Shown here: in pieces, positions 24,596-52,300 of the stretch
Layout: each line of letters starts with the position of its first letter
Position numbering within the stretch: the stretch's first letter is position 1
From: Proteromonas lacertae
Lineage: Eukaryota
Reading direction: 5' to 3'
Assembly: GCA_002245135.1 (NCBI GenBank)
Contig: NGBS01000895.1
Coordinates: 1-64,000 of the forward strand
Length of the DNA: 64,000 bases
The notes under the pieces: model-generated
The model's input: only the letters and a program-made list of their open reading frames with translations
Told to the model about the DNA's origin: nothing
The model's database searches: none
Translations under genes and position numbers: made by a program

Positions 24596-24742
24596 AAGAA
24601 AAATATATTTTATTGATGGATGAAAGAAAGAGAATATTATGTGAAAGCTATGTATATTTAATATTGTTATTACTATTATAGTTTTTGATAAATGAAATTA
24701 CCTGTAGAAAATACATTCAGTCAGATTTGATAAACATTTATG

Positions 24743-28741: not shown

Positions 28742-29016
28742 ATTAAAAAGATGAAAAAGATCTTAAATACCTTTATTACAAATTAAATTAGTGTATAAAT
28801 CTAAATAGTAAGCTCTATTAAGATGAAATATTAGAAGAATATTCATATGAAGTTAATTTGTTTGAAACAAGTGATTTAGAATGTGTGAACGAAGTACAAT
28901 CTATTTTAACTTTAGATTTATCAAGTATTTTGGTTTATATCACTTTTACAAAAACAAAATAGAAGAAGGATTAATAACATATATTTATGTGTGTGTCTAA
29001 CATATAAAAATTAAAT

Positions 29017-33504: not shown

Positions 33505-34527
33505 TTAATCATAAAAACTATTAAATTCATTTTTTACATTAAATACTTTTCCTTTTTTAATTTCATAACTCAAATTATATTTGGATAATAACAAACCAGA
33601 TTTTAAAGAAGCTGTCAAACCGTAACTGCTTCTTGAAATTATAAGAAATTTTGATTTTGACAAAATTTCATGTTCAATAATAATTGATGATTCTTTTAAA
33701 TTATAAGCAAAGTGTATAGATATGTTCTTGGAAAATAAAATGACTTGTTTATATGTTTTGCTTATATTCAGTTTTAATCTCAGTGAATCTCCTGTTAAAA
33801 ACCATTTCTTATATTTCTTATTTCTTCTTGCCAAATCTATCATCATTTTTATATCATATAAACTTGAAAATTGTCTTTCATGTAAATCATCATTTCCTAC
33901 TCTCATTTGCACTCCAATATAATCTACTAACCTATACTTTGATAAAAACAGATTAACATTTTTTGTTATATGTTTATTAACGATTAACAATTTGTTGAAT
34001 ATATAGTAATATAGTGTGTAAATTCTTTTCATCTTATCCAACTTCTTATTAATTGAAAGATATTTCCATAATCCATTTGAAAATTCAGTTCTGTTTATCA
34101 TTTCTACTAATAAATCACACCATATATATGTAAATGATATATTCTTCAATTTTTTGATTTTTATTAACATATCAATAGTAAAAGGGCATATCGTGATTAA
34201 ACTACTACTACCATTGTATGACTTTGATGTTATATTATAATTTGGCATATGATAAAATAAATCAAATTCATCCCAATTTATAACTAGCATATTATATTAT
34301 TCTTTCATAATACATATTGGTTTAGATTCATAAAAAGTTGATAAAATAATAATGCCTGCAAATGCCATTAACCTATTTCCAAGTCCTCCTGCAACATTCA
34401 CACTTATACAATTAATTGCATTATTATACATTTTGATTAAAGCTTCTACACCAATATTAATCTTCAATATTATTAAACAAAGAAAAATAACAAGCGAAAA
34501 ACAAAGAATTAATACTTTTATCCACAT
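33505..34527 (-). CDS. Alpha-fucosyltransferase-like (GT11/NodZ-like GT-B) type II membrane protein, copy A, one 30-nt intron
   Basis: N-terminal TM, GGLGNRL motif, IGVQMRVG, FLTGDS, ISRSSYG. Confidence 0.75.
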
Positions 34528-34815
34528 ATATTTTTGTATTTTACCATATAATTTACTTAATTAAAATTATATAAAACTCTTATCAATAAGAAAAACAGTT
34601 ATTTTCTTTGTTCAATATATTTCTAGTAATTAAATGCATATTATTGATGAAAGATAGGGAATAGTTAAGATATCATTAGAATTTGCTATGAACGGTTTTA
34701 TTCTAGATAAAGGATTAATGAATATAATTGAATATATCTTTCATTTTTAATATAATGTGGTATAATAAAAAAAATGTAACTTAAGTAAGAAAAACCTTTC
34801 ACTTTTTATACTGTA

Positions 34816-35703
34816 ATGAAATACATATTTTTATCAATAATATTACTTATTATTGTCTGTTTTATTATTAAACATAAATATTTACCAAAATATCATCAGT
34901 ATTTGTTTGTTACATCATATTTTCAAATTGTAAATTATGGCAAACATAGTCTTCAACATTATAAGAAATGGATTAATCATTTCTTCAGTTATATAAACAA
35001 GTCGTTAGTTATATTCACTGATAACAACAGATCTTCTAAATCTTTTGTTCCTTCTTTTGTGAAAGCATATATGTATGAGTATGACTCAATATGGGAAGTT
35101 TCATGTATAAAAAAGTATAAAGATAATTATAGAAGGCAACATCAAATCGATAGAGAGAAAAATCTTCATAATCCAGATATTTATGCAATATGGAATTCAA
35201 AAATATGCTTTTTAGATATAGCAGCAAATGATATACCAAGTAAATTATATATATGGATAGATATAGGAACATTCAGAGATCCAACCACTTTTTATTCTCT
35301 CCCATCATCAAATGCTATAAACATGTTTATTAATTTCAATTCAATGTTCTTTTTTACAGTCTATAATCAAACCTATAAACTAAAAAATGAAACAGAGTTA
35401 GTAGATCTAGTTTTTATACAAGGAACAAGTTTTGGAGGTAACAAACAATCAATTCATCAATATTATAACGAATTTTGGAAATTATATGACTATTATTTGA
35501 ACATAAATAAATTTGTTGGGAAAGATCAGAATTTATTTAATACATTGGCATTTTACAAATCAAATTTAAATATAACATTAATAAAAGTCCATGATTTAAG
35601 CATGTGTATGGGAAATGAATGGTGGAAGTATCAATGCTTTTATGCTGGAATGAATTTAGAGTTGTTAAAGAAAATAAATATAAATGAATATATCATAAAA
35701 TAA
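34816..35703 (+). CDS. HtrL/YibB-like (WlaTC/HtrL) glycosyltransferase, type II membrane
   Basis: N-terminal TM; FVTSYF, LVIFTD, YAIWNSK..FL, YIWIDIG, FGG, FVGKDQNLFN. Confidence 0.7.
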   Translation: MKYIFLSIILLIIVCFIIKHKYLPKYHQYLFVTSYFQIVNYGKHSLQHYKKWINHFFSYINKSLVIFTDNNRSSKSFVPSFVKAYMYEYDSIWEVSCIKKYKDNYRRQHQIDREKNLHNPDIYAIWNSKICFLDIAANDIPSKLYIWIDIGTFRDPTTFYSLPSSNAINMFINFNSMFFFTVYNQTYKLKNETELVDLVFIQGTSFGGNKQSIHQYYNEFWKLYDYYLNINKFVGKDQNLFNTLAFYKSNLNITLIKVHDLSMCMGNEWWKYQCFYAGMNLELLKKININEYIIK

Positions 35704-35837
35704 CTTCCCAATACTCACATACTTTTTTATTATGGTTTTATAGCTTATGATGCTAATATAATAATGATATACACTTAATAACTATCATTTGTTATAAGTA
35801 TAACAATCATTTGTGTAGAAGGTTGGTATTTTGAGTG

Positions 35838-36866
35838 ATGTTAGTAGTTTTAACAATATTAATAGTGTGTATTTGTGGAATATTATATTTTTTGTTCAAC
35901 AATCTCAATGAAATTATAAATGAATACTATTCCTGCAACTCCAAAATAAAATATATTAACACAGAGATATATCCACCAGCAAATTTAACAGTTTTATTTA
36001 CAATGCTTATTAATTTACCAAAAGAAATTTCAAAATTCTATTTCTTATCGTTAATCAAGGTGAAATACGAAGGACTAATAGTTGTATTAACAAATAATGA
36101 GACAAATAAGTTCTATAGTAATAAATTAAACATTCATTATATAGAAATAACACATGATTATCCTTATTATCCTTTAAACCATAACAGATATCCAATAAAC
36201 ATCAATTTAGTTAAGTATATTATACCTACTTTTATATCTAATCTCTCAAAGTTTTATACAAGAAATGTTGTGAGGTATTTTATATTTTACTTGTGGCTTA
36301 AAGAATATGGTTCAAAATATAAATACTTCATTTTTACTGATTTAAGAGATGTTGTTTTTCAAAAACATCCATTTGCATGGAATATATGTAAAGGCGTTGT
36401 ACTTACTGAAGAAACATACTTAACTTCATTATTAACAATTAGTCCACAATTTAATATTCAGTATTTTAAAAACTATACTAGGATGAATCATACAGTAATA
36501 AATGGAGGATTGTTATATGGCTCATATAATGAATTGAAATGTTTTTTGTATATTTATGCAATGTCATATAGAAGATTTGGCTTTGCAGGAAATGATCAAT
36601 CCCTACTAAACTATTTGTATTATGAATCTAAACCTCAATTAAAATTGAAATGTTCAATTAGAGTTAACAGACATCATACAGGATATGCAAGATGTTTGGC
36701 TTCGTATTTATATTCATCAAATGAAACACCAATTGATAAGACAGGATTCATTGTAAATGGAGATGGAACTTATCCTGCTGTTTTACACCAGTTATATGCA
36801 GGTGTTGAATCAGGAAGTGAGAAAAGGAAAAAAAAGTTCAAAATTCTGATTAATAGTTTAATATAA
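35838..36866 (+). CDS. Putative GT-A nucleotide-sugar transferase, type II membrane
   Basis: N-terminal TM; RY..F..WL, FIFTDLRDVVFQKHPF, INGGLLYG, NDQSLLNYL, VLHQ. Confidence 0.7.
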   Translation: MLVVLTILIVCICGILYFLFNNLNEIINEYYSCNSKIKYINTEIYPPANLTVLFTMLINLPKEISKFYFLSLIKVKYEGLIVVLTNNETNKFYSNKLNIHYIEITHDYPYYPLNHNRYPININLVKYIIPTFISNLSKFYTRNVVRYFIFYLWLKEYGSKYKYFIFTDLRDVVFQKHPFAWNICKGVVLTEETYLTSLLTISPQFNIQYFKNYTRMNHTVINGGLLYGSYNELKCFLYIYAMSYRRFGFAGNDQSLLNYLYYESKPQLKLKCSIRVNRHHTGYARCLASYLYSSNETPIDKTGFIVNGDGTYPAVLHQLYAGVESGSEKRKKKFKILINSLI

Positions 36867-37133
36867 TGTTAAATATTAGATTGAACTATTTTTTCACCTT
36901 TTCTTCGTATATACTTTTCTTATTATAATTATATATATATATATAGTTAATAAATGGTTTATTACAAATTCTATAATATATGAAAATGATCGGCTTGAAA
37001 CAAGATCAAGCTTCATTTAAAAACCATAATTCTTCTAATAGAATAAGTATTTTTATATATTAATGTAGTTTCATTGTAAATTAATATAATATAGTGATAG
37101 AATATATATTCAACATATATGTTATAAAGAGAT

Positions 37134-37994
37134 ATGTTTAGAGTAACACAAAGTGTTTTTCATTTACTATTTATATTATCATTATGTATTATAAGTTTTT
37201 TTATATATGATAAAACCCCTACAGTAAAAGTTGTAGCAAATAGATGCAAATTAAAGAATATTGAAAAAAAGAAAAAAGAGAAGGTGTGGAATGCAGGTAA
37301 CTATATAGATTTAGGAGCAAATAATGGAGATTCTATAGCATGGTTTTATAACATTGAAATATTAGGTTTAAAATCTGTTGTTCCTTATCCAAAAATTCCT
37401 TTAAATATATCAATGAATTTTAATACATACATATTTGAAGCAAATCCTTTTTTATGTAACGACATCTATAGAGTAGTAAATTTCATAAAGAAACACACAA
37501 AATTGGTTAATTTTAATGTTTATTGTCCTGTTATAGTAAGTACATATAATGGAACTGATGTAATGAGTATTGACAAAGATGATTTATATTCATCAAAGTT
37601 TTACAATTCTAATGTGAATTATAACTCAAACAGACAGAATTATACTATGCCAGTGGTTAATATTACAAATTTCATAGAAGAGAATATAAGTCCAAGCGAT
37701 TTTAATGTTATGAAATTTGATGTAGAAGGTGAAGAACATTATATCTTCCCTGAATTAATTAAAACCAATCAGCTACTAAAGTTTGACATACTTTATTCAG
37801 AATTTCATAGAGCAGCTGTTAACAATCCTGCAAAAGCATATGCTACAAAAATATATAATGATTTTCTCAATTATACAATGACTTATGGTATTGAAACATA
37901 TGAGGAAAGAAGTATAAGTCAAAACCAATTAGAAAGACATTTAGATCTGTATAAAGAATTGATGTATTGCAGAAAAGGAATATTTAAAATGTAA
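37134..37994 (+). CDS. FkbM-family (Methyltransf_21) SAM methyltransferase, type II membrane
   Basis: N-terminal TM; YIDLGANNG, IFEANP, VMKFDVEGEE, LYSEFH. Confidence 0.85.
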   Translation: MFRVTQSVFHLLFILSLCIISFFIYDKTPTVKVVANRCKLKNIEKKKKEKVWNAGNYIDLGANNGDSIAWFYNIEILGLKSVVPYPKIPLNISMNFNTYIFEANPFLCNDIYRVVNFIKKHTKLVNFNVYCPVIVSTYNGTDVMSIDKDDLYSSKFYNSNVNYNSNRQNYTMPVVNITNFIEENISPSDFNVMKFDVEGEEHYIFPELIKTNQLLKFDILYSEFHRAAVNNPAKAYATKIYNDFLNYTMTYGIETYEERSISQNQLERHLDLYKELMYCRKGIFKM

Positions 37995-38063
37995 TTACTA
38001 TGTTTTTATAAAATATAGTCGTTTCTTATTGTGGTTTAATAGATAAATCTAATTTAATGTAGG

Positions 38064-39076
38064 ATGAGAGTAGTTGTTACAATATTTATTACTTTTATAT
38101 TTATTTACACAATGACAATAAAACTATTAATCAGAATAAAGCGAATAATTAGAATATACAAAAATGCAATAAATAGTGTCAGTGTCAATTGTGAAGGCGG
38201 TTTAGGTAATAGGTTAATGTCATTTGCAGGAATTATAACATTGTCATTATTTTATGAATCTAAACCAATAAGTATTAATACAAAGAATAATATAATATAC
38301 TAGTAATAAATTGGGATGAATTTGATTTATTTTATCATATACCAAATTATAATATAACATCAAAGTCATACAATTCTAGTTATTTGTTTTCATTATGCCC
38401 ATTTAATAGTGAATCGCTAAATAGTATAAAAGAGTTGAAGAATATATCATTTACATACATATGGTGTGATTTATTAGTAGGAATGATAAATAATTCAAGT
38501 TTTTCTAAGAATCTAAAGGATATTTTCCCATACATTCAAAAAGCAGAGAAAATGAGTTATGTATTTTCTATATATTACTATATATTCAACAAATTGTTAA
38601 TCGTTAATAAACATATAACAAAAAATGTTAATCTGTTTTTATCAAAGTATAGGTTAGTAGATTATATTGGAGTGCAAATGAGAGTAGGAAATGATGATTT
38701 ACATGAAAGACAATTTTCAAGTTTATATGATATAAAAATGATGATAGATTTGGCAAGAAGAAATAAGAAATATAAGAAATGGTTTTTAACAGGAGATTCA
38801 CTGAGATTAAAACTGAATATAAGCAAAACATATAAACAAGTCATTTTATTTTCCAAGAACATATCTATACACTTTGCTTATAATTTAAAAGAATCATCAA
38901 TTATTATTGAACATGAAATTTTGTCAAAATCAAAATTTCTTATAATTTCAAAAAGTACCTATGGATTAACATCTATGCTAAAGTCTGGTTTGTTATTATC
39001 CAAACATAATTTGAGTTATGAAGTAGAATATGGATTAATATTTAATATGAAAAGTAAGTTTAGCAAGTTTCAGTAA
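38064..39076 (+). CDS. Alpha-fucosyltransferase-like type II membrane protein, copy B, one intron (~38272-38303)
   Basis: TM, EGGLGNRL, IGVQMRVG, ISKSTYG; ~380 bp identical (inverted) to copy A. Confidence 0.75.
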
Positions 39077-39084
39077 TATTTTAC

Positions 39085-40068
39085 ATGAATAGAATTAATG
39101 AGTATGGTATTATATACTTACTTATTTTAATTATAATAATGATTATATATATTATAATTTATGTAAACTATGATGAATCTGAGATATTATTTAAAAGCAT
39201 TGTCATGAAAGAATTGTTTTACATTAGAAATACAACCGATAATAACTTACCAATATTATATAGTAGAAGATACACATCTGAATCATACTATGTGAAGAAT
39301 AAGACATTAATCAAAATGGAGAATAAAACAGTAAATTATAATACTAACTTTATCAAAAGACAGTCTAATATCTTAGTTGCAATTCATTCTCACATATCAT
39401 TGTTTTATCATAGATATGTCTTTAGAAAAATATACAAAATATATAAGGATATTCAAGTATTATTCTTTATAGCATTAGATTATAATCAAACATTAAACTC
39501 TCAGTTGTTAAAAGAAATGAAAATTTACCAAGATATTGTTCTATTCAATTTCAATTGCAATTATTATAATCTACATTTTTTAACATATAATTTTCTTAAA
39601 TGGGTTAAGAAGTATAAAAGTTTGTATGATGTGATAGTCAAACAGGATACTGATACATTTGTTAATATTCATATACTTCAATCAATGTTAAAACAAGTGT
39701 TAAATAAAAACAATAAATCATTTGTTTTAGGATATATATGGGGATATGAAAATGTGAATATAAGATATCCTAGCGGAATGTCATATGTATTTTTATCAAA
39801 TTCAATAGATAAATTAGTTGTTCATTTAGATGAAGAATTCGATAGAGTGTATTATGGTTATCCTGAAGATATGTTTTTTGGAAGATTGGCAAGAAGAGCA
39901 AATTTCGATTTTATTGATGCTAATTTTACCTTTAATTACACTACATATATAGAAATTCCTAATATTATATTTGATGCAAAAAAGATATATATGATTCACT
40001 GGTTGAGAATTTCTGAAATAGCATTTTTACATTTGAATTGCAGCAACAGAAGGAATTTCGAAGTATAA
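39085..40068 (+). CDS. GT31-family (beta-1,3-galactosyltransferase-like) glycosyltransferase
   Basis: TM; R..FRK, LLKE...YQDIV.F.F..NY.NL, VKQDTDTFVN, YPSGMSYV, EDMFFG. Confidence 0.85.
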   Translation: MNRINEYGIIYLLILIIIMIIYIIIYVNYDESEILFKSIVMKELFYIRNTTDNNLPILYSRRYTSESYYVKNKTLIKMENKTVNYNTNFIKRQSNILVAIHSHISLFYHRYVFRKIYKIYKDIQVLFFIALDYNQTLNSQLLKEMKIYQDIVLFNFNCNYYNLHFLTYNFLKWVKKYKSLYDVIVKQDTDTFVNIHILQSMLKQVLNKNNKSFVLGYIWGYENVNIRYPSGMSYVFLSNSIDKLVVHLDEEFDRVYYGYPEDMFFGRLARRANFDFIDANFTFNYTTYIEIPNIIFDAKKIYMIHWLRISEIAFLHLNCSNRRNFEV

Positions 40069-40099
40069 TTTAAATATAAATTCATTTTGGTTGTAAAAA

Positions 40100-41005
40100 A
40101 TGGAGTTTTTTGTTACTTTATTATTTCTTGTGTTAATAACCATTATTGTAGTATTGTTATTCTATATTAAGATTAATAATAAATCATGGAAATAAATATA
40201 ATAGAAATTATTCAAAGTGTATAAAATATCTTGATCAGAATTGGGAAAATTTTGAATCAAGAAGAGGACGTTTATCTGATCAACATATAAGAACACAGCT
40301 ATTTCCATTAATCAAAGAGATTATTCCAGTTTTATCAAAAGAACAGTGTATATATGATATTGGTGGAAATATTGGAGATATAACAGAAATGTTTAACAAA
40401 TACTACCCTAACAATTACATATTCACTGTTGAACCTTTAGAAGCTAATTATAAAGAAATGAAATCAAGATTTAATAGAACTAAGAAGATTAAGCTTTACA
40501 ACATTGCATTAGGATCATTTGATGGGAAAAGAGTATCTAATACATTTAATAGTGGAGGTTTAGGAGATTATTTATATCCAGGAAGATTAATGAATGAATT
40601 TAATATTAAATATATGAAAACTGATTCATTTTATAAGAAATTTTGTATATTTATATATATATATATCTTATAGCAAATAATATGGAAATATTCTTTTTCA
40701 AATTAGATACAGAAGGATTTGAAGATGATATTATGTACAATGCAAAGTATTTATTGGAAAATGAAAAAATCAAAATAATATATTTAGAATATCATCAAGG
40801 ATATTGTAAAGAGTATGAATCTAATCTAATTCATTATTTGAATAAATATGGTTTTAATACATATTTAGTGGGAAGTAATTTTCTATTAAGTACTAATGAT
40901 TGTCCAAATTACTCATTAGATAGATTTAGTTTAGGTCATATTATAGGTTTTCATACCACAAAAGAAATTGAAAATGATTTTATAAAGAAGTACAACAAGT
41001 CTTAG
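40100..41005 (+). CDS. FkbM-family methyltransferase, type II membrane; +1 frameshift at ~40189, intron at 40645-40673
   Basis: MEFFVTLLFLVLITIIVVLLFY TM; IYDIGGNIG, VEP, NIALG, FFKLDTEGFE, IYLEY. Confidence 0.75.
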
Positions 41006-41114
41006 TAAATATTTTACACTAAATGGTTATTATGTATTTGATTTTTAATTTTTTAACACTAAAGCTTGATGAAAGTTCAAGCTTACTTTTCAAATAGAAT
41101 ATTATAAGCAGAAT

Positions 41115-42305
41115 ATGAAAATAAGACTAATTATCATATTCGCTATATCTTTAGTTTTATTATCAATATGTTTGTATAGTAAGTATAATAATAGTTTTAT
41201 AGGAAATGATGTAATTAACTCACACATTCTTCCCATCTATAAATTAGGTAAAAACAAGTATATCACATCAGCTCATTATATAGATTATGAAAATTCTATC
41301 AATTTAATTATTTATTCAGATTCAAAAAATATTGAATTTAGCAGATGTGTAATTGTGTATGATAAATTTAAAGACAAATGTAAAGCCAAAATGCAATATG
41401 AAGGAAGTAATTACTATTATCGAATAGAGTTAAAAACTAGAAAGGATGAAAAGCCTTTACTTTTGTTCTTGAATAATTTAACAATAAAATTCAACAATAA
41501 AAAACGAATAGACACAAATTCATTTGTAGTGTGTATATCAATTGTAGTAAAACTAAAAAGGCCTCTTATGCTTATACAATTGATTGAATCATATAGAAAA
41601 TTCGGAGTATCAAAAATTGTTGTAAATTATCAGTCATCATCAGTAGATGTTATAAAGGTATTGAATTATTATAATCAAATGGGCGTTGTAGATATATATC
41701 AATATAATAATACTGTAGATGAGAGGTTTAGAGATATTGAAAATGATGTTAATCCATATATATATTATTTTCAAATATGGAAGATAAATCAATGTTATTT
41801 TGATTATAAAACTCCATCAAATCACATTATTGTATTAGATGTAGATGAAATTCTTTGGCCAGTTAAAGCATCTAATTATAAAGAGCTGTTTAAGTCATTA
41901 CCAAAAATGGATTACTTTTTTTTGCATCAATTCTTTTACAAAATTGAAATTAATATCCCTAGAAATAAAGATCATACAACCGATCTTACAGATGTGGATA
42001 TATTTTCTATAAGGAATTATTGCCCTACTTCCAATGGAATAGCTCACAAATACATAATCCATAATACCAGCAAAATCACTAAAGCTGAAGTTCATTTTGT
42101 ACAATATAAAGAAAATGTCAATCAGCAATATATACCCAATAATATTGCTTATGTTAGACATACCAGGCATTATGATGATAATATAAAGGTAATGTGTATT
42201 AATTCATCTATTACACATAATACATCAGGAGTTGAGAATAAACTTCATCTTTTATCTAAATCAGTTTATAAAAAAATATTGAATAAGATATTTCTAGGGA
42301 GATAA
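41115..42305 (+). CDS. GT92/DUF23-family glycosyltransferase
   Basis: TM; FVVCIS..LIQLIESYRKFGVSKIVV.Y, Q...INQC, IVLDVDEILWP, KYII. Confidence 0.8.
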   Translation: MKIRLIIIFAISLVLLSICLYSKYNNSFIGNDVINSHILPIYKLGKNKYITSAHYIDYENSINLIIYSDSKNIEFSRCVIVYDKFKDKCKAKMQYEGSNYYYRIELKTRKDEKPLLLFLNNLTIKFNNKKRIDTNSFVVCISIVVKLKRPLMLIQLIESYRKFGVSKIVVNYQSSSVDVIKVLNYYNQMGVVDIYQYNNTVDERFRDIENDVNPYIYYFQIWKINQCYFDYKTPSNHIIVLDVDEILWPVKASNYKELFKSLPKMDYFFLHQFFYKIEINIPRNKDHTTDLTDVDIFSIRNYCPTSNGIAHKYIIHNTSKITKAEVHFVQYKENVNQQYIPNNIAYVRHTRHYDDNIKVMCINSSITHNTSGVENKLHLLSKSVYKKILNKIFLGR

Positions 42306-42918
42306 TTCTCAAAACTTTGTTAATACAACATTTTTATCTTCTTTTTTCAATAAAGTTGCGATTACATTCTATGTGTGTTTAAAATGTTGTTATTACCAGA
42401 ATCATAAAAATAAAAATGGTTATATGTCACTCTAACACTATTAATTTCATCTTCTTTATACACACACTATAAATTGTCTGATTATATTTTTTTCTAATTA
42501 ATATCAAATTCACATTACCAAATATGTTCTATATGAAGCTTAATCATAAAAAATAAAATCAAAATATCAAGCTTTTGGCTTGTGATTTTTGATTTTTTTT
42601 TTTTTGAATATTGTAATTAATGTTAGTCAATCAATTATATAGGTACTAGCATTAGAAATGAGAAAGTTATGTAAGTCTTACCAGAATGTTTGCGAATTTT
42701 TCTGTAATAGATTTAAAATTAACTCAATTAACTTGATAGTTAATCGCTTCCCTAAGCTGTAATATTAAGTTTAAATCATGCTTAATTTTTAGCAATTATG
42801 AGAGTATAGATGATTTAATTCTGTATTTCTATGAAGAGGCTGATATAAAGAATTTAATTACAGAAGTAGAAATAGAATAATAAATAAAAAAGGAATTATA
42901 AATTATTAAAATAATAGA

Positions 42919-43767
42919 TTATACAAAGTATTTTTCTATTTCTTCTCTTGTAGTTGATTTATACTTTTGGTTATAATCATAGTGAATAGAGAAGTTATAA
43001 GCTCTATTATTAGAACACAAATCGGTTTTACCATTTAGAAATGATATTAATGTTAAAGAACTTTGATCTTGTCTGTGATTTGATCTATCTGATCCAGGAG
43101 GTGCAATACAATCATGTTGTAAAGCACATTTCTCCCATTCATACAATATTTTTTCTGCTAAACGAGAAGGATACATAAAAGCCACAGTTCCACCAGCACA
43201 ACATGTTTTATTCAACCATTTATCAGGAAAATTGAAATGTTTTAACATTAAAGGATGTGTATATTTCTTAATATCGTGACTAGTTCTTTGAGACCATACT
43301 TTGTTTTTCTTGATATTTTCAATCATATAGTTTATACTTCCAGTTATATTACATCCAGCATCAAGCCAAACAACAGGATGTTTGTATTTTTTATACACTT
43401 CATATATTATTACTGGTTTCCATGCATATTCACCTGCAGCAACTGATATATTGAAATATGATGGATAGTTATTGAAAGGAAAATTTTGTAATAGAAATAA
43501 TGGATGATTGAGTTTATATCTGTTAAGTAAATAAAGTGTATTTTGTGATAATCCTAGATTATATACAATCATCAGAAATCTGTTGTTATGTACATAAAAT
43601 GTGTGAATCATGTTTAATAATAACAATTCGTGGTTTTCTGATCCTCCAGTTACAATTACATAATCATAATCCAATATTTCATTATTCTTTACAAACATAT
43701 TATACATATATATAATAAATATTATAAAAATACAGCTAATGAAAAACTTGGTTTTAAATCTAAACAT
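42919..43767 (-). CDS. DUF1647-like putative glycosyltransferase, type II membrane
   Basis: TM; IVTGGSENH, IVYNLGL, YAWKPVII, VWLDAG, W.KCAL..DCIAP.G, HRQDQSSL. Confidence 0.75.
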   Translation of the reverse strand: MFRFKTKFFISCIFIIFIIYMYNMFVKNNEILDYDYVIVTGGSENHELLLLNMIHTFYVHNNRFLMIVYNLGLSQNTLYLLNRYKLNHPLFLLQNFPFNNYPSYFNISVAAGEYAWKPVIIYEVYKKYKHPVVWLDAGCNITGSINYMIENIKKNKVWSQRTSHDIKKYTHPLMLKHFNFPDKWLNKTCCAGGTVAFMYPSRLAEKILYEWEKCALQHDCIAPPGSDRSNHRQDQSSLTLISFLNGKTDLCSNNRAYNFSIHYDYNQKYKSTTREEIEKYFV

Positions 43768-44678
43768 TAAAATAAATAATTTACATATTTAGAAACAACT
43801 GAAATGTAGTTTAATCCATATTCATTGGTTTTGAATAAAAATTGTATTAGTGGAACAATATTCTCTACCCAATAATGAATAGTATCATTAGGTAGATGTG
43901 GAAGATGTATATCTATTATTTCATTCCAATTAGCAGACATATTCTTTTTCCATTCTTCATTATTATCTCCTCTGTCAAATCTTGTATTATCATATGATCT
44001 TTCATGAAAGTTTATTTTATTTGGATAGAATTTTGATTTTCTTATTTTGTCTCTCATATATATTTCATCAATACAATATCCATATCGTATATAATCTGAA
44101 TCTATTATCTCTTTTACTAATTCATACTCATTTGTTTTGTTTAGCATATCAATTTTTAGTATATCCTCATACATTTGTTTTGTTCCGCTGAAATAACACA
44201 TAGGCCATCTTCTACTTACATATCCATTCAATCCAAAGGATTTTATGGTGAAATTGGTATAAGAATAATCCTGAAAAAATGTATAGTTATATGGAAGCAT
44301 ATCAACATCAGAAATATACAATATACTATTCTCTTTTTTGATTTGCAACGAACTAAAAATTCTGCACAGTTTGGAGAAATATTCTAAAGAATAGTTTTGT
44401 GGAATAACAATCTCTTTATATATAGCTTCTTGTTCAGTTAATTTGTTGATTAACTCATTTGGCAATTTTTGATGTGATATAATGTATATTATTGATGTAT
44501 ATCCAAATATCCTCCACATTTTCACAAAAAGTGGAATGTAAAAGAGATATGTGCCAGATGCTGAAATTCCAACATATTTTTCAAAATTATTACTGTTATA
44601 TATATTTATATAATTGTATAAGAATAAAAAGATGATGAATAATAAAACTGTGATAAAGTAGTTGTATAGTCTTTTCAT
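43767..44678 (-). CDS. Putative DxD glycosyltransferase, type II membrane
   Basis: TM; YLFYIP....W, RIF, LYISDVDMLP, PMCY, DE..M, RFDR, IDIHLP. Confidence 0.65.
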   Translation of the reverse strand: MKRLYNYFITVLLFIIFLFLYNYINIYNSNNFEKYVGISASGTYLFYIPLFVKMWRIFGYTSIIYIISHQKLPNELINKLTEQEAIYKEIVIPQNYSLEYFSKLCRIFSSLQIKKENSILYISDVDMLPYNYTFFQDYSYTNFTIKSFGLNGYVSRRWPMCYFSGTKQMYEDILKIDMLNKTNEYELVKEIIDSDYIRYGYCIDEIYMRDKIRKSKFYPNKINFHERSYDNTRFDRGDNNEEWKKNMSANWNEIIDIHLPHLPNDTIHYWVENIVPLIQFLFKTNEYGLNYISVVSKYVNYLF

Positions 44679-45725
44679 ATGTATGTTGTGTTTTTATTCA
44701 TTTTGTTATTTCTAGCTTCTATTATGAATTATTACTATTCATTTTCAAATAATAATGAATATAATAATATTAGGAAGAAAGTATATGAAATTTTAACATC
44801 AGACATTTATGATAGATTGTTTAAAAATGTTAGTTTAATATACTTGGGAAATAGAGTAAATTACAAGAATAATATACTAAAATACGCGTTTGTAAGTTTT
44901 ATAACTGGTGAAGATTATATTAAATTGATAAATGGAACTATATACTCAATACACCAATTTTCTAATTATCCTATAGTTTTATATGTTGCTGGTGTAATAA
45001 CAAAGACAATGAATGAAGTATTTTCACATTACGATAGATTATTAGTTTATTCTATTCCGCCTGAAACAACATCTCCTTATTTTATAAAATTAAGAGCTTC
45101 ATTATTAGCTCCAGTTTTGGTAGGTCAAATAGTTGAAGCAGATACAATAGTATTACCTGGCGCAGATTGTTTATTTAAAAGAATAGAAGAAGAAATTAAT
45201 GAAAAATATCCTTTTCCAATGATGCCTAGACATCCTGATATAAGAGGAGTTGAAAAGGGAAATGGAACAACAAACATTCTTGATTATCCTATGAATAAAA
45301 GATCAATGAGATATATGCATGCTCATATGTCTTGGACTTATCATGCTTTACCATTTATAGCATTTGTGTATAACAAATCTTTCATATATGACTATGGCAA
45401 TGACGAACATGCTTTAAATATCAATTTGTGGGAAAGAAAAGCAAATAAACAATGGTGTATTTATGATCCATATTATAGTGTAGTAGATATATCACATTCT
45501 AATGATGTCTTCTATAAAATGGATGATATTCTGACGATATATAATTTCATTCATGGATGTAAATCTTTCACGCATCAACAGAGAATGATGAATAAACTAA
45601 CACTACTTAAACAAAATGAATATAAAATAATTTACTCTGCAAACAAATCTATTCATTTTTCACAATCCTGTAAATTAGATAATTTAATTTTAAAAGAAAT
45701 TTATAAGGAAAATTGTTTTTTATAG
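44679..45725 (+). CDS. Putative GT-A glycosyltransferase, type II membrane
   Basis: TM; SIHQFSNYPIVLY, FIKL.A.L, IVEADTI, NDEHALN..LW, FIHGCK. Confidence 0.65.
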   Translation: MYVVFLFILLFLASIMNYYYSFSNNNEYNNIRKKVYEILTSDIYDRLFKNVSLIYLGNRVNYKNNILKYAFVSFITGEDYIKLINGTIYSIHQFSNYPIVLYVAGVITKTMNEVFSHYDRLLVYSIPPETTSPYFIKLRASLLAPVLVGQIVEADTIVLPGADCLFKRIEEEINEKYPFPMMPRHPDIRGVEKGNGTTNILDYPMNKRSMRYMHAHMSWTYHALPFIAFVYNKSFIYDYGNDEHALNINLWERKANKQWCIYDPYYSVVDISHSNDVFYKMDDILTIYNFIHGCKSFTHQQRMMNKLTLLKQNEYKIIYSANKSIHFSQSCKLDNLILKEIYKENCFL

Positions 45726-45761
45726 TTATTTTTCCAAAAATATTTCATCTTTTCATCTAAT

Positions 45762-46484
45762 ATGTTGCTTTTATTATTTCTTTTATTAATTGCAATAATA
45801 TTTATAGCTGTTATGCTATTTTATAGAAGTAATAGTAAAAGATATAATATATGTTCATGGAGTGGAAAAAAGAAATATTTAAACACTAGTTATGAAGATA
45901 ATTACAAAGTAAAGTTAGTATATGATATTCTAAAAAAAATAAATATTGAATATTTTCTTATGGATGGTTCATTGTTAGGTTCATATAGAAATGGGGGTTT
46001 TATTCATAATGATAATGATTTTGATGTAGCTATTCCTGTTTGGTTAAATAGTAATATATTTCATTGTAAAGAGAAAATATATATAGATATAATAGATTAT
46101 GGATATGATTGTATAAAATTTCCCAGCAATTTTACAATATGCAACAAAACAAAGAAAGATTATCTAAAAATTTTCTATGATTATGCTAAGCCTCATCTAA
46201 AGAACATAAGACATAATTATCAAGATATGCATGGCGTTGTAGGATTATTTTTAGATGGATTTACAGTTGATTTGTGGTTGATGATAGGTGATGAGTCATC
46301 CTACAGAGTGAAAGATGAATTATGTAAATGTAAATTTTCAGAATTTTACATGAATTGTATAGAAAATCCTTTACCATCATTTATGAGTAAATATGGATCG
46401 GATTTTTACAAGCCTATTCCTAAAGGCCAACTTAAGCATAGATGTATAGAGCATATTCCTAATATATATATAAAAAAGGAATAA
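45762..46484 (+). CDS. LicD/fukutin-family nucleotidyl/phosphotransferase, type II membrane
   Basis: TM; YFLMDGSLLGSYRNGGFIHNDNDFDV, VDLW, KYG.DF..P. Confidence 0.88.
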   Translation: MLLLLFLLLIAIIFIAVMLFYRSNSKRYNICSWSGKKKYLNTSYEDNYKVKLVYDILKKINIEYFLMDGSLLGSYRNGGFIHNDNDFDVAIPVWLNSNIFHCKEKIYIDIIDYGYDCIKFPSNFTICNKTKKDYLKIFYDYAKPHLKNIRHNYQDMHGVVGLFLDGFTVDLWLMIGDESSYRVKDELCKCKFSEFYMNCIENPLPSFMSKYGSDFYKPIPKGQLKHRCIEHIPNIYIKKE

Positions 46485-46511
46485 ATATCCATAAATTATA
46501 TAATTTAATTA

Positions 46512-47465
46512 TCAATGTTTAGAATGTAAAAAATATATTTCATGAGGTTTTAATCTATGAATCATAAAGATGTTATCAACAAAACCAATCACAATGCTAC
46601 CTTCTCCAATTATCTTATTATATTTTCTAACATCACACATACTCACGTTTGATTTTTTTGATAATCTTCCTATAAATACATCTTCAGTACTACCATAACA
46701 ATTACTATTTACTTCAGAATGACTTGCCTTTAACATACTATTTATTGCTTTATATGGTATTACATACCCCATTCCACTTGGAAAATAACCTATAATATAT
46801 CCCCATATTTCATTTTCTGCGCTATATGGTGATTGTGAATGTAATTCTCTTAGCACATTAATGTTTAAGAAAGTATCTGTATCATGTTTAATTAACCATT
46901 TGAAGTGAGTGTGAAGTTTTGAACTCCATAGTAAGATATTATATGTTTGCAATATTAAAGCATAATAGGAGGATGAGAATTGAAACTGAAGAACATCACT
47001 ATGTAATTGAATTTCTTCATTAATTTTGTTGTTAATGTTTAAATACTTACTCTTACCTAAGATAAAAACATATGATAAGAAATTGTATCCTTTATATATT
47101 TTTCTAAATACTTCTCTTTCATAAAACATATCTGGTTCTGAAATTATTGTAATAAGATATTCACAGTCTTTTATTGTAGGATAATCTAGGTTATTATGGC
47201 TATATTCATTTAATAATAACACATATGGATTTGACTTTCTGTTTTTTATATATAATTTGTCAGAATTTCTACTGCAAGTTACTTTTTTTGTCCTATTAAA
47301 ACATTGTTCAATTTTTTCAATATCTTTAGATAAAATATTATCAAAATTTGCAATACTTGAATTGCATGTAAGAATGAGTGTAATTATAATAATACCGCCA
47401 AAAGCTATAATAAGCTTTGAATAAAATATTATTAGTCTTATAAATTTTGATATAATATAATACAT
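46512..47465 (-). CDS. GT31-family glycosyltransferase, second paralogue
   Basis: TM; REVFRKIY, EE...H.DVLQF.F..SY, IKHDTDTFLN, FPSGMGYV, EDVFIG. Confidence 0.85.
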   Translation of the reverse strand: MYYIISKFIRLIIFYSKLIIAFGGIIIITLILTCNSSIANFDNILSKDIEKIEQCFNRTKKVTCSRNSDKLYIKNRKSNPYVLLLNEYSHNNLDYPTIKDCEYLITIISEPDMFYEREVFRKIYKGYNFLSYVFILGKSKYLNINNKINEEIQLHSDVLQFQFSSSYYALILQTYNILLWSSKLHTHFKWLIKHDTDTFLNINVLRELHSQSPYSAENEIWGYIIGYFPSGMGYVIPYKAINSMLKASHSEVNSNCYGSTEDVFIGRLSKKSNVSMCDVRKYNKIIGEGSIVIGFVDNIFMIHRLKPHEIYFLHSKH

Positions 47466-47676
47466 AAATAAATCATTTTTTAATCACAACATTTTATAAA
47501 TATCCTTTAAATATTCTGTATTTGGCTATTCTTTCTATAATTCTATATGATTTTAATGTTAAATTATTTCAAGGAGGTTATTTAGGAGTAGATAACCTAA
47601 ATAATATTAAAAAAGAAATATGCTTTAAGCCATTGTAATGAATATTTTTTACTTCTATAACAAAGTGAAAGAGATG

Positions 47677-48467
47677 TTATTTTGAAAAATATAATACATT
47701 ATCCCTCAACCAATCTATTTTTGTTGTATTTTTTATCATGTAAGTAGTTTCATTTATATATCTCAATCCTTTACTCTCAAATAATCTATTACATCATTTC
47801 TATCTTTATTATTTACATGAAAATGTCCTCCTTGACCAATTCTACTCCATGTTATTAGTATTCCTTCTCTACTACACTTTAAAAGATTATTCACATATAC
47901 TTTTTCATATGTTTGTGGTATATGTTCAGCTACTTCAAGTGACATTACTATATCATATTTACAATCAAACTCTATTGGCTGAGCTAAATTTAAATATTTA
48001 ACTCTACCATTAGTAGCTTCTTCTATATTAACTGATCCATCATATTGATCGCAGACTTTGGATTTTTTAGATATAATTGGGCAATACCATCCTAAACCAG
48101 ATCCCAAATCAACAACAGTTTTGTTTTGAAATATCTCTGCTAAGATATTTGCTAAACTAACATCATGCTCATGATTACCTCCCACATATATTCTATCTTT
48201 ATTTAAACAAAATCCACCCCAATATCCAATTCCTTTACACTTACAAGACAAATTATTCATAAATTTCACATAATCTCCTTGGCTATATATTTCACTTTCA
48301 TTTTTATTTTGTGTATTACAACTTGATAATAGTGATGATATTTCTTTCTTCATCTCTTTATTTACGACAAATTTCTTAAAATTGATATTATTTTTGTTAC
48401 TATATTGCAATAAAATAATAAGAAAAATAGAAAGGCATATAATCAGTAGTATAAATAAATACATCAT
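47677..48467 (-). CDS. Class I SAM-dependent methyltransferase, type II membrane; the C-terminus continues after a -1 frameshift at ~47775
   Basis: TM; VVDLGSGLG, YDGS, SLEVAEHIP, GQGGHFHVN. The shifted frame reads SKGLRY...WLRDNVLYFSK* ending at 47677. Confidence 0.8.
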
Positions 48468-48674
48468 TTACACATAAATAATATATATTCTAGAGAGAAT
48501 GTTGTCAGAATATCTAATTTATGTTATATTTTTGATATTAATTTAGTAATTAAATTATATCCAATCATTCGTGAACTGATAGAAAATAACGACTACTTTT
48601 CATTTGGAAGAAAACAATTATCAACCATTATCAGTCCTTTCTTCCAAATTATTTACTAAATTTGAATCAGATTT

Positions 48675-49484
48675 TTAATATAAAGATACACTACATATTG
48701 CAGATTTCGATGTACGAAAACCTATATGATCCATCACATGCTGAATATGAATATCATCTTTACTTCCATTTCTTCCTTTATATGTAAAACCTAATTTATA
48801 TCCTTTGCTTAAAAATATTTTAGATACATACGCTTCTCCTGGGTAATACGCTATTTCTTTTAATATTATTGATTTGTATATTGTAGCACCATTTGTATAT
48901 CCCCATCCCAATTTCAATAATCCAATATACAAAGTATGTTTCCCCATTTTAGTTGTTACATTTATTGTTTCATGTATTTGAAAATGATCAGTTTCTCTTA
49001 CTACAACTCCATATACTTTATTAGTTTTATTAAGTATAAGTATTGATTCAAGAATAAAGGATGGATAAAATATTTCCTTCTCAACATTTTCATCAACAAC
49101 CCAATCTTCTTCTAGCAGAAATACATACTCTGTATATAAATATGAAAATAGAATATCAAAACTCAATTCCATACCACTTGGATTAAATAGAAATGAGTTT
49201 TTAATATTGTATTTTTTAATTACTTCTTCTCTTTCAACAGTTCCTTGATCAAAATACAATGTGTTGTAGTTTATTTCTTTTTCATAATTATATAAATGAC
49301 TATAAAAAGCATTTAATGTTTGATTTAGATAATTATATCTATTGCAAGCAAATATTGATATTAATATTATCGGATATCTATCTACTCCATTATAAAATAT
49401 TCGTTTATTTTTCTTAATATATATAAAATAAATAGTAATTATAGATATTATTGTTAAAACTACAATAAAAACATATATAAACAT
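48675..49484 (-). CDS. GT2-like glycosyltransferase, type II membrane
   Basis: TM; ISIFACNRYNYLNQTL, YFDQGT, TEYVFLLEEDW, HIG. Confidence 0.75.
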   Translation of the reverse strand: MFIYVFIVVLTIISIITIYFIYIKKNKRIFYNGVDRYPIILISIFACNRYNYLNQTLNAFYSHLYNYEKEINYNTLYFDQGTVEREEVIKKYNIKNSFLFNPSGMELSFDILFSYLYTEYVFLLEEDWVVDENVEKEIFYPSFILESILILNKTNKVYGVVVRETDHFQIHETINVTTKMGKHTLYIGLLKLGWGYTNGATIYKSIILKEIAYYPGEAYVSKIFLSKGYKLGFTYKGRNGSKDDIHIQHVMDHIGFRTSKSAICSVSLY

Positions 49485-50178
49485 ATTAAATCTCTATCTT
49501 CATATAATATCCATGAAAAATAATAACATAACAATATACAAACATGATAACTTCATATTTTTACATAATAACAATACACTAAAGAACTATCACACGCAAT
49601 TGATGATATTTCACAATATATGTTTGATGGATACAACTAAAACATTCCTGTTTGATATTCAAATAATACTACTCAAAAGATCATCATCATCAATATCACT
49701 AATATTTGAGTTCAGTGTATTTTCTTATTCTCTATTTTCTATACATTTTTGTAAGATTCCACATATTTCAAATTCATCATTATATTAATGATAAATTTGA
49801 TATTTCAGTTTGTTTATTTCTATTAGATTCTATTAAATCAAATGTCATCACATGCTTTCTCAAACTCTTATATTTTCTATATGTGTTTATATCTCTTATT
49901 ATAAAAGTATTTTTATATAAAAAAGATATATAAGTTCAACAACAACAATGACAAGAAGATATACACCTGGTATGAATCGTTATTGGGACTTTAGAAGATA
50001 TTTTTTCAATAGAAGAAATTTTCTTGTTATTGATTTGATTCTGTGGTAATGTAATATCCCCGAAGTAGTAATTCTAATATAATAACCGCAAAATTGATTA
50101 TGACATTTGAAATGTAAATTACATTGATTTGACTAGTATCAAGCTTTTACATATTTTATCAATTTTAAGACTATAGAA

Positions 50179-52300
50179 ATGATCATCAAGTCAAATTTAC
50201 ATATAAATGAAGGGTATAACAATCCATCGGCTCAATTATGCTATAATATATCTACATAGTTTGATTCGAAAAATGATAAAGTGTGGTTATGGTGATTTGA
50301 GAGTATTGGTTGAAGATGAAGAAATGAAAACATTGAAATCATTGTTCTGTTGTTGTAATGATACATTTCGACAGATTTTAGAAGATAAAGAGTTTAAAGA
50401 ACCATTAGAGTTATATGAAGGATGTAATAAAGATGTATTTCTGATGTTAGAAAGATATTATGAAGGAAATGATATAAATGTTGAAGATAATAACTGTGTT
50501 AAACTGTTATTGATTTGTGTTTGTTATAATGAGAATAGATTGTTGAAAATACTGAAAGAATATATACTGAAAAGAATGAATGAAAATGATAAAATGATTG
50601 TTGAATTGTTGAATGAGAAATACATACTTGAGAATAAGAATCTATTAGAAATGAAGATAGAAATGAATAAATACTTAAGTATGAAGAATTATCGATTATT
50701 GAATGATACAATGATGAATGAAATGAATGTGTATAGTATAAAAGAAATCTTTGGTTATGAAATAAAATATAATGGAAATAGAAGTGAATTAAAAGAATTA
50801 TTGAATGGTTATATGTTAATGAATGATAAATATTTGAATGAAGAAGAAAATAATATAATGAAAGAGATAATGAATAGAATAAATGAAGATGAAACAAATC
50901 AGTTAATAAGATATATCTCAGTTCCAAAAATCAAGAATGCAAATATTATATGAATATTTGATAGACAATTATCCAAAAGAAAATGAAGAAATGGAAATAA
51001 AAAGTATAATACTATTTTATTTTTAAATCAATAGAAGACTTAGCAATTGGAAACACTAAAGTATTAGATATTTTATTAGTAGAAGGAAATATGATTATTA
51101 AAATGATGGCAATGTTAATAATATATGAAAATAATTTATGTTTAAATTATACAGAATATAAGCAATCATGTAATGAATTATTAAATGAATATAAAATGAA
51201 TAAATGGAATGATTATATGAAAAGAAAGAAAAGAGGTGATAATATATTAAAATGTGTATGTGTGTTTATGAATGAAAGATATGATAATACAATAATATTA
51301 GATGAAATGGTAAGAGTATGTGGAATGGAAATAATATATGATTTTATTGAAAATGATAGAATTTTATTAAAGCATGGTGATAATATAAATAATTTATATT
51401 ATTATATTCATAATAGAAGAATTGAAGATAGAGATAATGAAATAATAATTGAGATTATCAAAGATGAAAGAAAAAGAAAAAGAATAAAATGTATATAGAA
51501 TATTTAATTAAATTAATAGATAGAAGAATAAAAGAAGTAAAATATGAAGGAGACATTTATTTAAATATAAAAGGATGTTTAAAGCCAATAGTTGATGGAG
51601 ATGTAGAAGAATATTTTCTAAAATCAAGTATAAATGATATTTAAATGAATAGAATTACCAAATGGTTTATCATTTAATAAAGAGACAGGTGAAATTAGTG
51701 GATTAGTAAGTGAACCATATGAAGGTGATTTAAGAATAGTTGCTAAAAATATATGGAATGAAAAAGAATATAAAAAGAGATTAGAGGTTTATGATAGTAT
51801 AAAAAATGAAATTATATTCTATATTAGAAATTCATTTTACTAATCAATTAAATTATGAAGTTAGCGAAGACAAAAAAACAGTTTACTCTAATGGTTATGG
51901 TAATATAGCAAGATGTATGTTTAATATAAAAATGGAAAATGCAATATATCATTACTATTTCTCATGTTCATCTCTTGATTTCAAAGTAGGTGCTGCTGTT
52001 GAATCATTTGGAATGGATCGAGATAATGATGGGAAGTATTGTGAAATTATAATAGATTCTAAAAGTTTATATGGAAATATTGGTAAAAATAAAAAAATAA
52101 AAAAACTAGATTTGTATAATAATTATTGTGAAGTAATATTTGATATGAAGAAAAGGACATTCTCAATTGTTGACAGATATGGAAATAATAATGTATTATT
52201 TACAGATCTTCCAGAAGATTTATATCCTTACGTATTTATGAGTAGTTATAAAGGGTATAATGCAACGGTAACTCTCTCTAAGTTTTTAATTGAAGAATAG
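50179..52300 (+). CDS. BTB/POZ - Ig-like (He_PIG) - SPRY-like protein, diverged third paralogue, multi-exon
   Basis: MIIKSNLHINEG|LIRKMIKCGYGD has the same first-intron position as copies 1 and 2; ELPNGLSFNKETGEISG; IKMENAIYHY, EVIFDMKKRTFSI, DLPEDLYPYV. Confidence 0.75.

What the first reader, a model, noticed from the sequence alone, without database searches (positions are those of the whole stretch)
33505..49484. A 16-kb, 15-gene operon-like glycan-biosynthesis island in a eukaryote
Seen: 15 consecutive genes with no housekeeping gene between them, all with an N-terminal signal-anchor (type II, Golgi-like). They span many unrelated families: 2 fucosyltransferase-like, HtrL-like, 2 GT31, GT92, GT2-like, DUF1647-like, 3 unassigned DxD-type, LicD, 2 FkbM and 1 class I methyltransferase. 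Twelve are intronless while flanking host genes are intron-rich, and several gaps are under 40 nt. Known: such mixed clusters typify bacterial O-antigen/capsule loci and giant-virus glycosylation loci, not nuclear genomes. Inference: a biosynthetic gene cluster for a methylated, fucosylated, phospho-decorated surface-coat glycan, acting as a serotype-like locus and probably assembled from laterally acquired genes retargeted to the secretory pathway.
Basis: partly seen in the sequence, partly recalled or inferred. Interest (0 to 1): 0.92.

Follow-up and report, generated by a model that had tools for sequence, protein, structure and literature searches.

The report
Fifteen-gene Golgi glycan cluster in protist
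An AT-rich single-celled eukaryote carries 15 adjacent nuclear genes, each starting with a membrane anchor, that likely encode Golgi enzymes which would together build a fucosylated, methylated, phosphate-tagged surface sugar coat; similar clusters are reported in the worm C. elegans, and the genes look long resident rather than freshly imported.

Summary
The cluster is real: 15 consecutive genes, all with an N-terminal hydrophobic anchor, from about 11 families; none of 28 flanking ORFs hits a glycan family. Pfam supports 8 genes, a predicted fold confirms the fucosyltransferase pair, HtrL is weak, and two genes carry one-base frame breaks. The DNA is host-like (codon use, introns), so not a contaminant. 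Linkage looks non-random: g14-type methyltransferases lie in the same locus as g15-type transferases in 31 of 52 metagenome loci (25 adjacent), DUF1647 lies near fucosyltransferases in 28 of 120 bacterial and viral loci, and contig lengths suggest clustering in relatives too. Recent import and retargeting are unsupported: g14 groups with anchored animal proteins, the families tested have old paralogs, and no donor locus was found. It is not one operon (five strand blocks). Best reading: a co-adapted Golgi glycan-decorating cluster assembled from older gene families; product, co-expression and serotype role are untested. The scan had not noted this DNA before; it noted anchored glycan clusters in bacteria and an arthropod-like genome.

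The parts
33505..34527 (-). g01, GT-B fucosyltransferase-like (NodZ/FUT8/AtFUT1 fold), 330 aa, one 30-nt intron at 34284-34313
   Evidence: 24 unnamed relatives at 45-57%
34816..35703 (+). g02, weakly HtrL-like, 295 aa
   Evidence: pairwise E 0.003 to E. coli HtrL; no Pfam hit
35838..36866 (+). g03, unassigned, probable GT-A (DLRD motif; family resemblance recalled, from no call), 342 aa
   Evidence: no hit; one weak partial match
37134..37994 (+). g04, FkbM-type methyltransferase, 286 aa
   Evidence: PF05050 2.8e-5, TIGR01444 1.5e-7
38064..39076 (+). g05, fucosyltransferase-like paralog of g01 (74.5% aa), 326 aa, 32-nt intron at 38272-38303; 381 nt identical to g01 (38571-38951 = 33633-34013)
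39085..40068 (+). g06, GT31, 327 aa
   Evidence: PF01762 9.9e-14
40100..41005 (+). g07, FkbM-type methyltransferase; 29-nt intron at 40645-40673; frame break near 40185 between anchor and catalytic part (one-base error, or possibly a 40-nt intron)
41115..42305 (+). g08, GT92, 396 aa
   Evidence: PF01697 3.5e-19
42919..43767 (-). g09, DUF1647, 282 aa; start overlaps the g10 stop by one base
   Evidence: PF07801 8.3e-6; 1,598 relatives; fusions
43767..44678 (-). g10, unassigned probable GT-A (DVD motif), 303 aa; head-to-head with g11 with no gap
   Evidence: 3 relatives at 73-91%; Atlas look-alikes viral, nearest named GT8/Nucleotid_trans; weak GT-A matches from a poor model
44679..45725 (+). 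g11, unassigned probable GT-A, 348 aa
   Evidence: Atlas look-alikes GT8/Mannosyl_trans3/Nucleotid_trans at 0.96, a lead only
45762..46484 (+). g12, LicD-family phosphotransferase, 240 aa
   Evidence: PF04991 1.3e-8; NF045866 2.3e-11, far under cut-off
46512..47465 (-). g13, GT31, 317 aa (30% identical to g06)
   Evidence: PF01762 3.7e-15
47677..48467 (-). g14, class I SAM methyltransferase; open frame ends at 47763 and the last 36 homologous codons follow in another frame (47787-47680)
   Evidence: PF13489 1.2e-5
48675..49484 (-). g15, GT2-like transferase, 269 aa, of the family that neighbours g14-type methyltransferases in prokaryote loci

Best explanation
This is a run of 15 adjacent host genes, each beginning with a hydrophobic anchor, that likely encode type II Golgi enzymes which would work on one shared surface glycan and are likely kept together because they must be inherited and expressed as a set. 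Mechanism, step by step. Shown: gene set, anchors, families, host-type introns and codons. Inferred from family knowledge: the anchor holds each enzyme in the secretory pathway with its catalytic part in the lumen; GT31 x2, GT92, the GT2-like g15, DUF1647 and the probable GT-A proteins g02, g03, g10, g11 extend a chain; g01 and g05 add fucose from GDP-fucose; g04, g07 and g14 O-methylate sugars with SAM, g14 probably capping what g15 adds; g12 adds a phospho-group (choline or polyol) from a CDP donor. Donors, transporters and the acceptor come from elsewhere in the genome, since the cluster has none (shown). Inferred: the genes are transcribed as several short overlapping units, not one operon, and the cluster was assembled by duplication and relocation within old, expanded families, whatever their distant origin.
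For: 15 of 15 anchored, against 0 of 28 flanking ORFs with a glycan family. About 11 families and only three same-family pairs (g01/g05 74.5%, g06/g13 30%, g04/g07 no BLAST match), so tandem duplication alone does not explain it. g15-type genes lie in 31 of 52 metagenome loci picked by a g14-type methyltransferase, 25 within 300 nt, against 2 of 120 DUF1647 loci; the profile, built without g15, hits only g15 of the 15 (E 1e-9, Z=1000). A fucosyltransferase lies in 28 of 120 DUF1647 loci; a FUT8-like family found in 6 of them hits g01 and g05. Among 49 long DUF1647 relatives scanned, fusions occur to GT2 (6), GT11 (2), GT10, GT31, FkbM and another methyltransferase (1 each). In unnamed relatives, one g14-family cluster and one g01-family cluster share two contig lengths, 2736 and 2419 nt; chance 0.0006 by jittered lengths, which suggests these families are neighbours there too, in another order. 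GC3 0.156 against host 0.166, codon r 0.96. Nuclear precedent with partial co-expression in C. elegans.
Against: No expression data, genome or glycan data could be had. No enzyme was assayed; g02, g03, g10 and g11 have no firm family. The prokaryote methyltransferases that pair with g15-like genes form a clade (SH-aLRT 96) apart from g14 (quick tree), their gene order is reversed, the g15 match covers only about 100 residues, and the 31 loci collapse to 25 clusters at 90% and 11 at 50% identity, so the pair is a family-level hint. 92 of 120 DUF1647 loci show no fucosyltransferase, and the control loci for that count were much shorter (median 4.4 kb against 20 kb). The contig-length match is indirect: the contigs were not read. 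Two of three methyltransferase genes are broken in the assembly. The FUT and methyltransferase families have 20 or more lineage relatives each, as expected of a turnover hotspot. The C. elegans authors leave pathway function open.
Confidence: 0.55

Rival explanations
1. A birth-and-death hotspot: anchored glycan-enzyme genes pile up here through local duplication, conversion and relocation, each serving a different glycan or none, with no single pathway.
For: Many paralog-like relatives; a 381-nt identical block between g01 and g05; two frame breaks; a different neighbour pair in relatives; no shared upstream motif seen by eye; lineage-expanded BTB genes and a Polinton-like element nearby.
Against: About 11 families with no non-glycan surface gene mixed in; zero-gap and one-base-overlap packing; the same family partnerships recur in bacteria and viruses.
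Confidence: 0.27
2. The cluster arrived as a block from a giant virus or an intracellular bacterium, and was then adapted to the host and given, or kept, its anchors.
For: Giant-virus loci have the same dense two-strand layout with DUF1647, GT31, FkbM, GT92 and a g15-like GT2 (L001, L002, L021, L027). Atlas look-alikes of g10 and g11 are viral clusters. 12 of 15 genes lack introns. One viral row is sister to the g09 clade at 91/86 on a very long branch. Earlier scan notes describe anchored clusters in Dependentiae and Chlamydiae (unchecked).
Against: g09 matches in the 120 loci reach at most 40% over full-length segments. Only 1 of 120 loci has three of four further families tallied. Viral GT31s do not match g06 or g13. 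Viral scans with g10 and g01 alignments found nothing. Only 2 of 32 viral and 0 of 78 prokaryote DUF1647 rows have an anchor. No viral core gene flanks the cluster. g14 groups with eukaryote and viral rows of mixed kind.
Confidence: 0.14
3. A contaminant or mis-assembled insert.
For: Two one-base breaks and a 381-nt perfect repeat could be assembly faults; no reads could be laid.
Against: Host-type 29-32-nt introns, host codon use, no GC step at the borders, and close relatives in other sequencing runs, whose FUT relatives begin at or after the same intron position.
Confidence: 0.03

Closest known systems
C. elegans glycogene clusters C13A2.1-.12, K06H6.1-.6, T15D6.1-.12 (PMC7614267, section 17 read; Fig. 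S15 not seen)
   Same: Nuclear runs of single-anchor Golgi-type proteins from several GT families with methyltransferases and DUF1647; pathway function unproven in both.
   Different: Here 15 genes in 16 kb, mostly intronless, gaps down to -1 and 0, with LicD, NodZ/FUT8-like and HtrL-like genes and no nucleotide-sugar transporter; a protist, not an animal. No sequence-level orthology was tested.
Megavirinae glycosylation clusters, 6-33 genes (PMC10117803, abstract and section 24 read)
   Same: Dense mixed clusters of glycan genes of patchwork origin, with genome-like GC and clade-specific content.
   Different: Those include nucleotide-sugar synthesis and lie in viral genomes; here none is present, all enzymes are anchored, and the flanks are host genes.
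Bacterial O-antigen, LPS-core and capsule loci (general knowledge; examples L106, L107, L112, L113; E. coli waa region with htrL)
   Same: Shared families and neighbour pairs: DUF1647 with fucosyltransferase, FkbM, LicD, Fringe/GT31, methyltransferase with GT2.
   Different: No flippase, polymerase, priming transferase or sugar synthesis; five strand blocks; spliceosomal introns; anchors on every enzyme.
GT-B fucosyltransferases NodZ, FUT8 (GT23), AtFUT1 (GT37), POFUT1/2
   Same: The g01 model matches NodZ Z 13.6 (rmsd 4.2, 165 aligned), FUT8 13.0 (4.9, 207) and AtFUT1 12.4 (4.0, 225); the next non-fucosyltransferase is 8.4.
   Different: 12-19% identity, no Pfam hit, tied among several families; linkage and acceptor unknown.
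Leishmania SCG side-chain galactosyltransferase genes (search listing only; details recalled)
   Same: Protist Golgi glycosyltransferase families that set a surface glycan pattern.
   Different: Recalled as copies of one family, not a mixed-family cluster.

Membership tests
C. elegans-type nuclear glycogene cluster | Adjacent genes for proteins with one N-terminal membrane segment | tested here: met
   15 of 15, no further strongly hydrophobic segment; 240-396 aa (g14 234 aa as broken), several under the paper's 300-600
C. elegans-type nuclear glycogene cluster | Several GT families plus methyltransferases plus DUF1647 | tested here: met
   fold
C. elegans-type nuclear glycogene cluster | Nucleotide-sugar transporter among the genes (present in some worm clusters) | tested here: not met
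   no multi-pass protein among the 15
C. elegans-type nuclear glycogene cluster | Correlated expression | not testable with these tools
   no run was listed
Eukaryotic biosynthetic gene cluster | Three or more non-homologous enzyme genes adjacent | tested here: met
   about 11 families; only two BLAST-related pairs
Eukaryotic biosynthetic gene cluster | The enzymes make one product | not testable with these tools
   only neighbour and fusion hints
Bacterial O-antigen/capsule locus | Flippase, polymerase or ABC exporter, priming transferase | tested here: not met
   none in Pfam or NCBIfam scans, no multi-pass protein
Bacterial O-antigen/capsule locus | Nucleotide-sugar synthesis genes | tested here: not met
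Operon | Co-oriented genes on one transcript | tested here: not met
   five strand blocks; only g02-g08 form a 7-gene co-oriented run, whose transcript was not testable
Giant-virus glycosylation cluster (endogenised) | Viral core genes nearby or viral nearest relatives | tested here: inconclusive
   no core gene in the flanks; trees for only 2 of 15 genes, neither decisive; Atlas look-alikes viral
GT-B fucosyltransferase superfamily (g01, g05) | NodZ/FUT8/POFUT fold with conserved donor-site Arg | tested here: met
   Arg of QxRxG invariant in 25 rows; its role is recalled knowledge
GT-B fucosyltransferase superfamily (g01, g05) | GDP-fucose transfer activity | not testable with these tools
   needs an assay
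HtrL_YibB PF09612 (g02) | Profile or sequence match | tested here: inconclusive
   no Pfam hit; pairwise E 0.003 with aligned motifs
LicD/fukutin (g12) | PF04991 above cut-off with the Asp motif | tested here: met
   35.7 bits against 22.6, over 35 residues only; DNDFD seen in the sequence; donor not testable
Serotype locus | Alternative gene sets at one position in different isolates | not testable with these tools
   no second assembly; hints only

The most novel reading that the evidence does not exclude
A eukaryotic serotype system: this protist lineage keeps its surface-glycan enzymes in bacteria-style cassettes whose gene content is swapped and converted between isolates, each cassette specifying one coat glycan, and g14 with g15 defines the missing glycan O-methyltransferase module whose relatives occur in molluscs.
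Probability: 0.25. Interest if true: 0.87.

Novelty: new variant of a known kind. Interest (0 to 1): 0.62.

Why it matters
Golgi glycan enzymes are usually scattered in eukaryote genomes, which is why many remain unassigned. For C. elegans the glycan methyltransferases and phosphorylcholine transferases are stated to be unknown, and so is whether its glycogene clusters are pathways (PMC7614267, passages). A compact, mostly intronless 15-gene set gives a ready panel to test both points. It offers candidates for sugar O-methylation (g14, with anchored relatives in a clam), a likely role for DUF1647 next to fucosylation, and a new branch of the NodZ/FUT8 fold. If content varies between isolates, it would be a protist counterpart of bacterial serotype loci.

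Tried and rejected
No genome is held and no sequencing run was listed, so other clusters, expression and the two frame breaks stay unchecked; the blank is no evidence. 7 cluster proteins were not in the collection as exact sequences. Scans without relatives: g09 alone and g14 alone in viral contigs; g10 alignment in metagenomes and viruses; FUT alignment in viruses; g02 and g11 in phages, g03 and g15 in plasmids; g15 in 5 genomes. g02 in 301 genomes of one gut-bacterial order gave 2 weak matches: one lies in an unrelated gene pair, the other has 5 stops. g03 gave 1 weak match with a stop, not examined. The HtrL family search rang nowhere, controls included, so it says nothing. PDB sequence searches gave only chance hits. 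The g10 model was poor (pLDDT 44.6). My first reading, that no bacterial or viral locus shares more than one family, was overturned by profiles. The careful tree did not finish; the quick tree is quoted, and loci over 80% alike were thinned. One search used 56 of 258 rows (the 18 nearest plus a random 38). One search scanned 49 long relatives of 150. Searches scanned hand-picked loci, so only one search is a tally. The host was not identified: the ribosomal L3 search shows only a eukaryote. 26% GC, short introns and DNA-encoded stops fit the Proteromonas/low-GC Blastocystis group as described in PMC10690189 (passages, sections 7 and 10), but this was not tested. Literature: searches listed no paper describing such a cluster in a protist; most subscription journals are not held, and the worm cluster map (Fig. 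S15) was not in the supplement text. Also read as passages: PMC5608401 (Blastocystis coat holds fucose), PMC3534327, PMC13620141.
Full report
Observation. The region 33505-49484 holds 15 genes and nothing else. Each starts with a hydrophobic stretch (17-residue Kyte-Doolittle maximum 2.29-3.58) and has no second strong one; 2 of 14 roughly placed flanking starts reach 2.0. Gaps are 288, 134, 267, 69, 8, 31, 109, 613, -1, 0, 36, 27, 297 and 207 nt, so 6 of 14 are under 40. g10 and g11 face away from each other with no base between their start codons, and the g10 stop overlaps the g09 start. The strands run - / +x7 / -x2 / +x2 / -x3. Three introns (30, 32, 29 nt) look like those of the ribosomal L3, poly(A) polymerase and kinesin genes nearby. 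None of 28 flanking ORFs hits a glycan family; they are ordinary host genes (ORC4, cap methyltransferase, scramblase, Myb, kinesin and others) plus a Polinton-type polymerase at the far left. The contrast in intron density is real but milder than claimed.

Two genes are broken in the assembly. g14 ends at 234 aa, while its full-length lineage relatives are 250-269 aa, and 5 of 5 tested match 34-36 further codons in another frame. g07 changes frame between anchor and catalytic part. Errors are likely but could not be checked.

Families. Pfam gives FkbM (g04, g07), GT31 (g06, g13), GT92 (g08), DUF1647 (g09), LicD (g12) and a class I methyltransferase (g14). g01 and g05 have no Pfam hit, but a model of g01 exon 2 (pLDDT 74) has only fucosyltransferases among its listed Foldseek matches and in the first six rows of a wide search, NodZ Z 13.6 to POFUT1 10.7, next 8.4. 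g15 is hit by profiles of GT2-like proteins. g02 aligns weakly with E. coli HtrL, which lies beside the LPS-core genes. g10 and g11 resemble GT8/Nucleotid_trans-type clusters in the Atlas, and the poor g10 model matches GT-A folds weakly. g03 rests on a recalled motif.

Is it host DNA? GC is 24.0% against 25.9% in the flanks with no step; synonymous GC3 is 0.156 against 0.166 and codon fractions correlate at 0.96. g10 has relatives at 91, 80 and 73% in other sequencing runs. The 24 g01 relatives all begin at or after the position of the g01 intron. It is native and long resident. The host is a eukaryote; earlier notes call it a flagellated gut protist (unchecked).

Is the grouping functional? 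Tandem duplication explains little: BLAST links only g01/g05 and g06/g13. Four lines point to partnership. First, of 52 metagenome loci picked by a g14-type methyltransferase, 31 hold a g15-type gene, 25 within 300 nt; the control is 2 of 120. g14 and g15 are neighbours here, in the reverse order. Second, 28 of 120 viral and prokaryote DUF1647 loci hold a fucosyltransferase, 22 an FkbM, 4 a GT31/Fringe and 2 a LicD; a FUT8-like family in six bacterial loci matches g01 at 2e-6. Third, DUF1647 is fused to GT2, GT10, GT11, GT31 and methyltransferases in 11 of 49 long relatives. Fourth, in unnamed relatives a g14-family cluster and a g01-family cluster share contig lengths 2736 and 2419 (chance 0.0006); these two families are not adjacent in the window, so clustering seems to recur in another order. 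All four are indirect, and the limits are listed in the Against line.

Origin. g14 and its lineage relatives form a clade (97/100) that groups with animal, unnamed and viral rows (SH-aLRT 93), apart from the prokaryote methyltransferases that pair with g15-like genes (quick tree). The named clam protein P0036 and most full-length relatives near it already carry an anchor, so the anchor need not have been added here. g09 nests among 9 unnamed rows (98/84) with long inner branches; the nearest viral row sits on a very long branch. No single viral or bacterial locus resembles the whole set, although giant-virus loci share the dense layout and family mix. Only 2 of 15 genes were treed. Ancient, piecemeal transfer remains open; recent block transfer is unlikely.

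Turnover. g01 and g05 share 381 identical bases in the catalytic half while the rest has diverged, as gene conversion (or an assembly fault) would give. A relative has g10 at 91%, yet the best g14 relative of 43 is 75% and the best g01 relative of 24 is 57%. That fits changing cluster content between close relatives, but also different rates or missing contigs. It is a hint for the serotype idea, not a test.

Mechanism. The most likely reading is a set of type II Golgi enzymes that extend a surface glycan, fucosylate it, O-methylate it and add a phospho-substituent, using donors and acceptors made elsewhere. The tiny gaps imply overlapping transcripts; gaps of tens of bases are reported for human Blastocystis (PMC10690189, section 7), so they do not prove an operon. 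A fucose-bearing coat is reported for Blastocystis (PMC5608401, passages), but the kinship of the host is untested.

Comparison and verdict. The closest known thing is the set of C. elegans glycogene clusters, which mix GT families, methyltransferases and DUF1647 and are partly co-expressed (PMC7614267). The Megavirinae clusters and bacterial loci are alike in layout but carry sugar synthesis or export genes that are absent here. Ten literature searches listed no protist case (see Tried and rejected). The finding is a new variant of a known but little-studied kind: real, unusually compact and testable. Interest 0.62.

Noticed in passing
window 222-5958: Run of intronless ORFs with a type B viral/organellar DNA polymerase (PF03175 4.9e-13), split over several frames, GC about 31-34%: likely a Polinton-like element cut by the window edge.
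   Followed up: partly
window 16198-18397 and 26554-28748: 2.2-kb inverted duplicate at 95.9% identity holding a BTB/BACK-like ORF and a second unassigned ORF; a BTB ORF also lies at 50207-50953, right of the cluster.
   Followed up: partly
window 33633-34013 and 38571-38951: 381 identical bases shared by the two fucosyltransferase-like genes in inverted orientation, inside genes otherwise about 75% alike at protein level.
   Followed up: partly
window 44676-44681 and 43765-43769: Back-to-back start codons of g10 and g11 with no spacer, and a TAATG stop-start overlap between g10 and g09; each promoter must lie inside the neighbour's coding sequence.
   Followed up: no
window 49485-50206: About 720 nt with broken, AT-rich frames and no clear gene at the right border; possibly a decayed gene.
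   Followed up: partly
L128-L171 (metagenome loci): A widespread prokaryote gene pair, class I methyltransferase overlapping a downstream GT2-like gene that Pfam hits weakly in only 2 of 8 tested; an unnamed module.
   Followed up: partly
P0029-P0037, P0041: Anchored class I methyltransferases in a clam and unnamed animal-like records: candidates for invertebrate glycan O-methyltransferases (methylated mollusc glycans recalled, from no call).
   Followed up: no
L021:4036-12585, L001:6673-13935, L112:787-7785: Dense glycan clusters around DUF1647 in viruses (with three GT6 genes in L021) and a Treponemataceae genome (two LicD, two GT11, Fringe).
   Followed up: partly
window 23382-26295: Unassigned ORFs, one with a weak STAND NTPase hit, between poly(A) polymerase and the BTB duplicate.
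   Followed up: no
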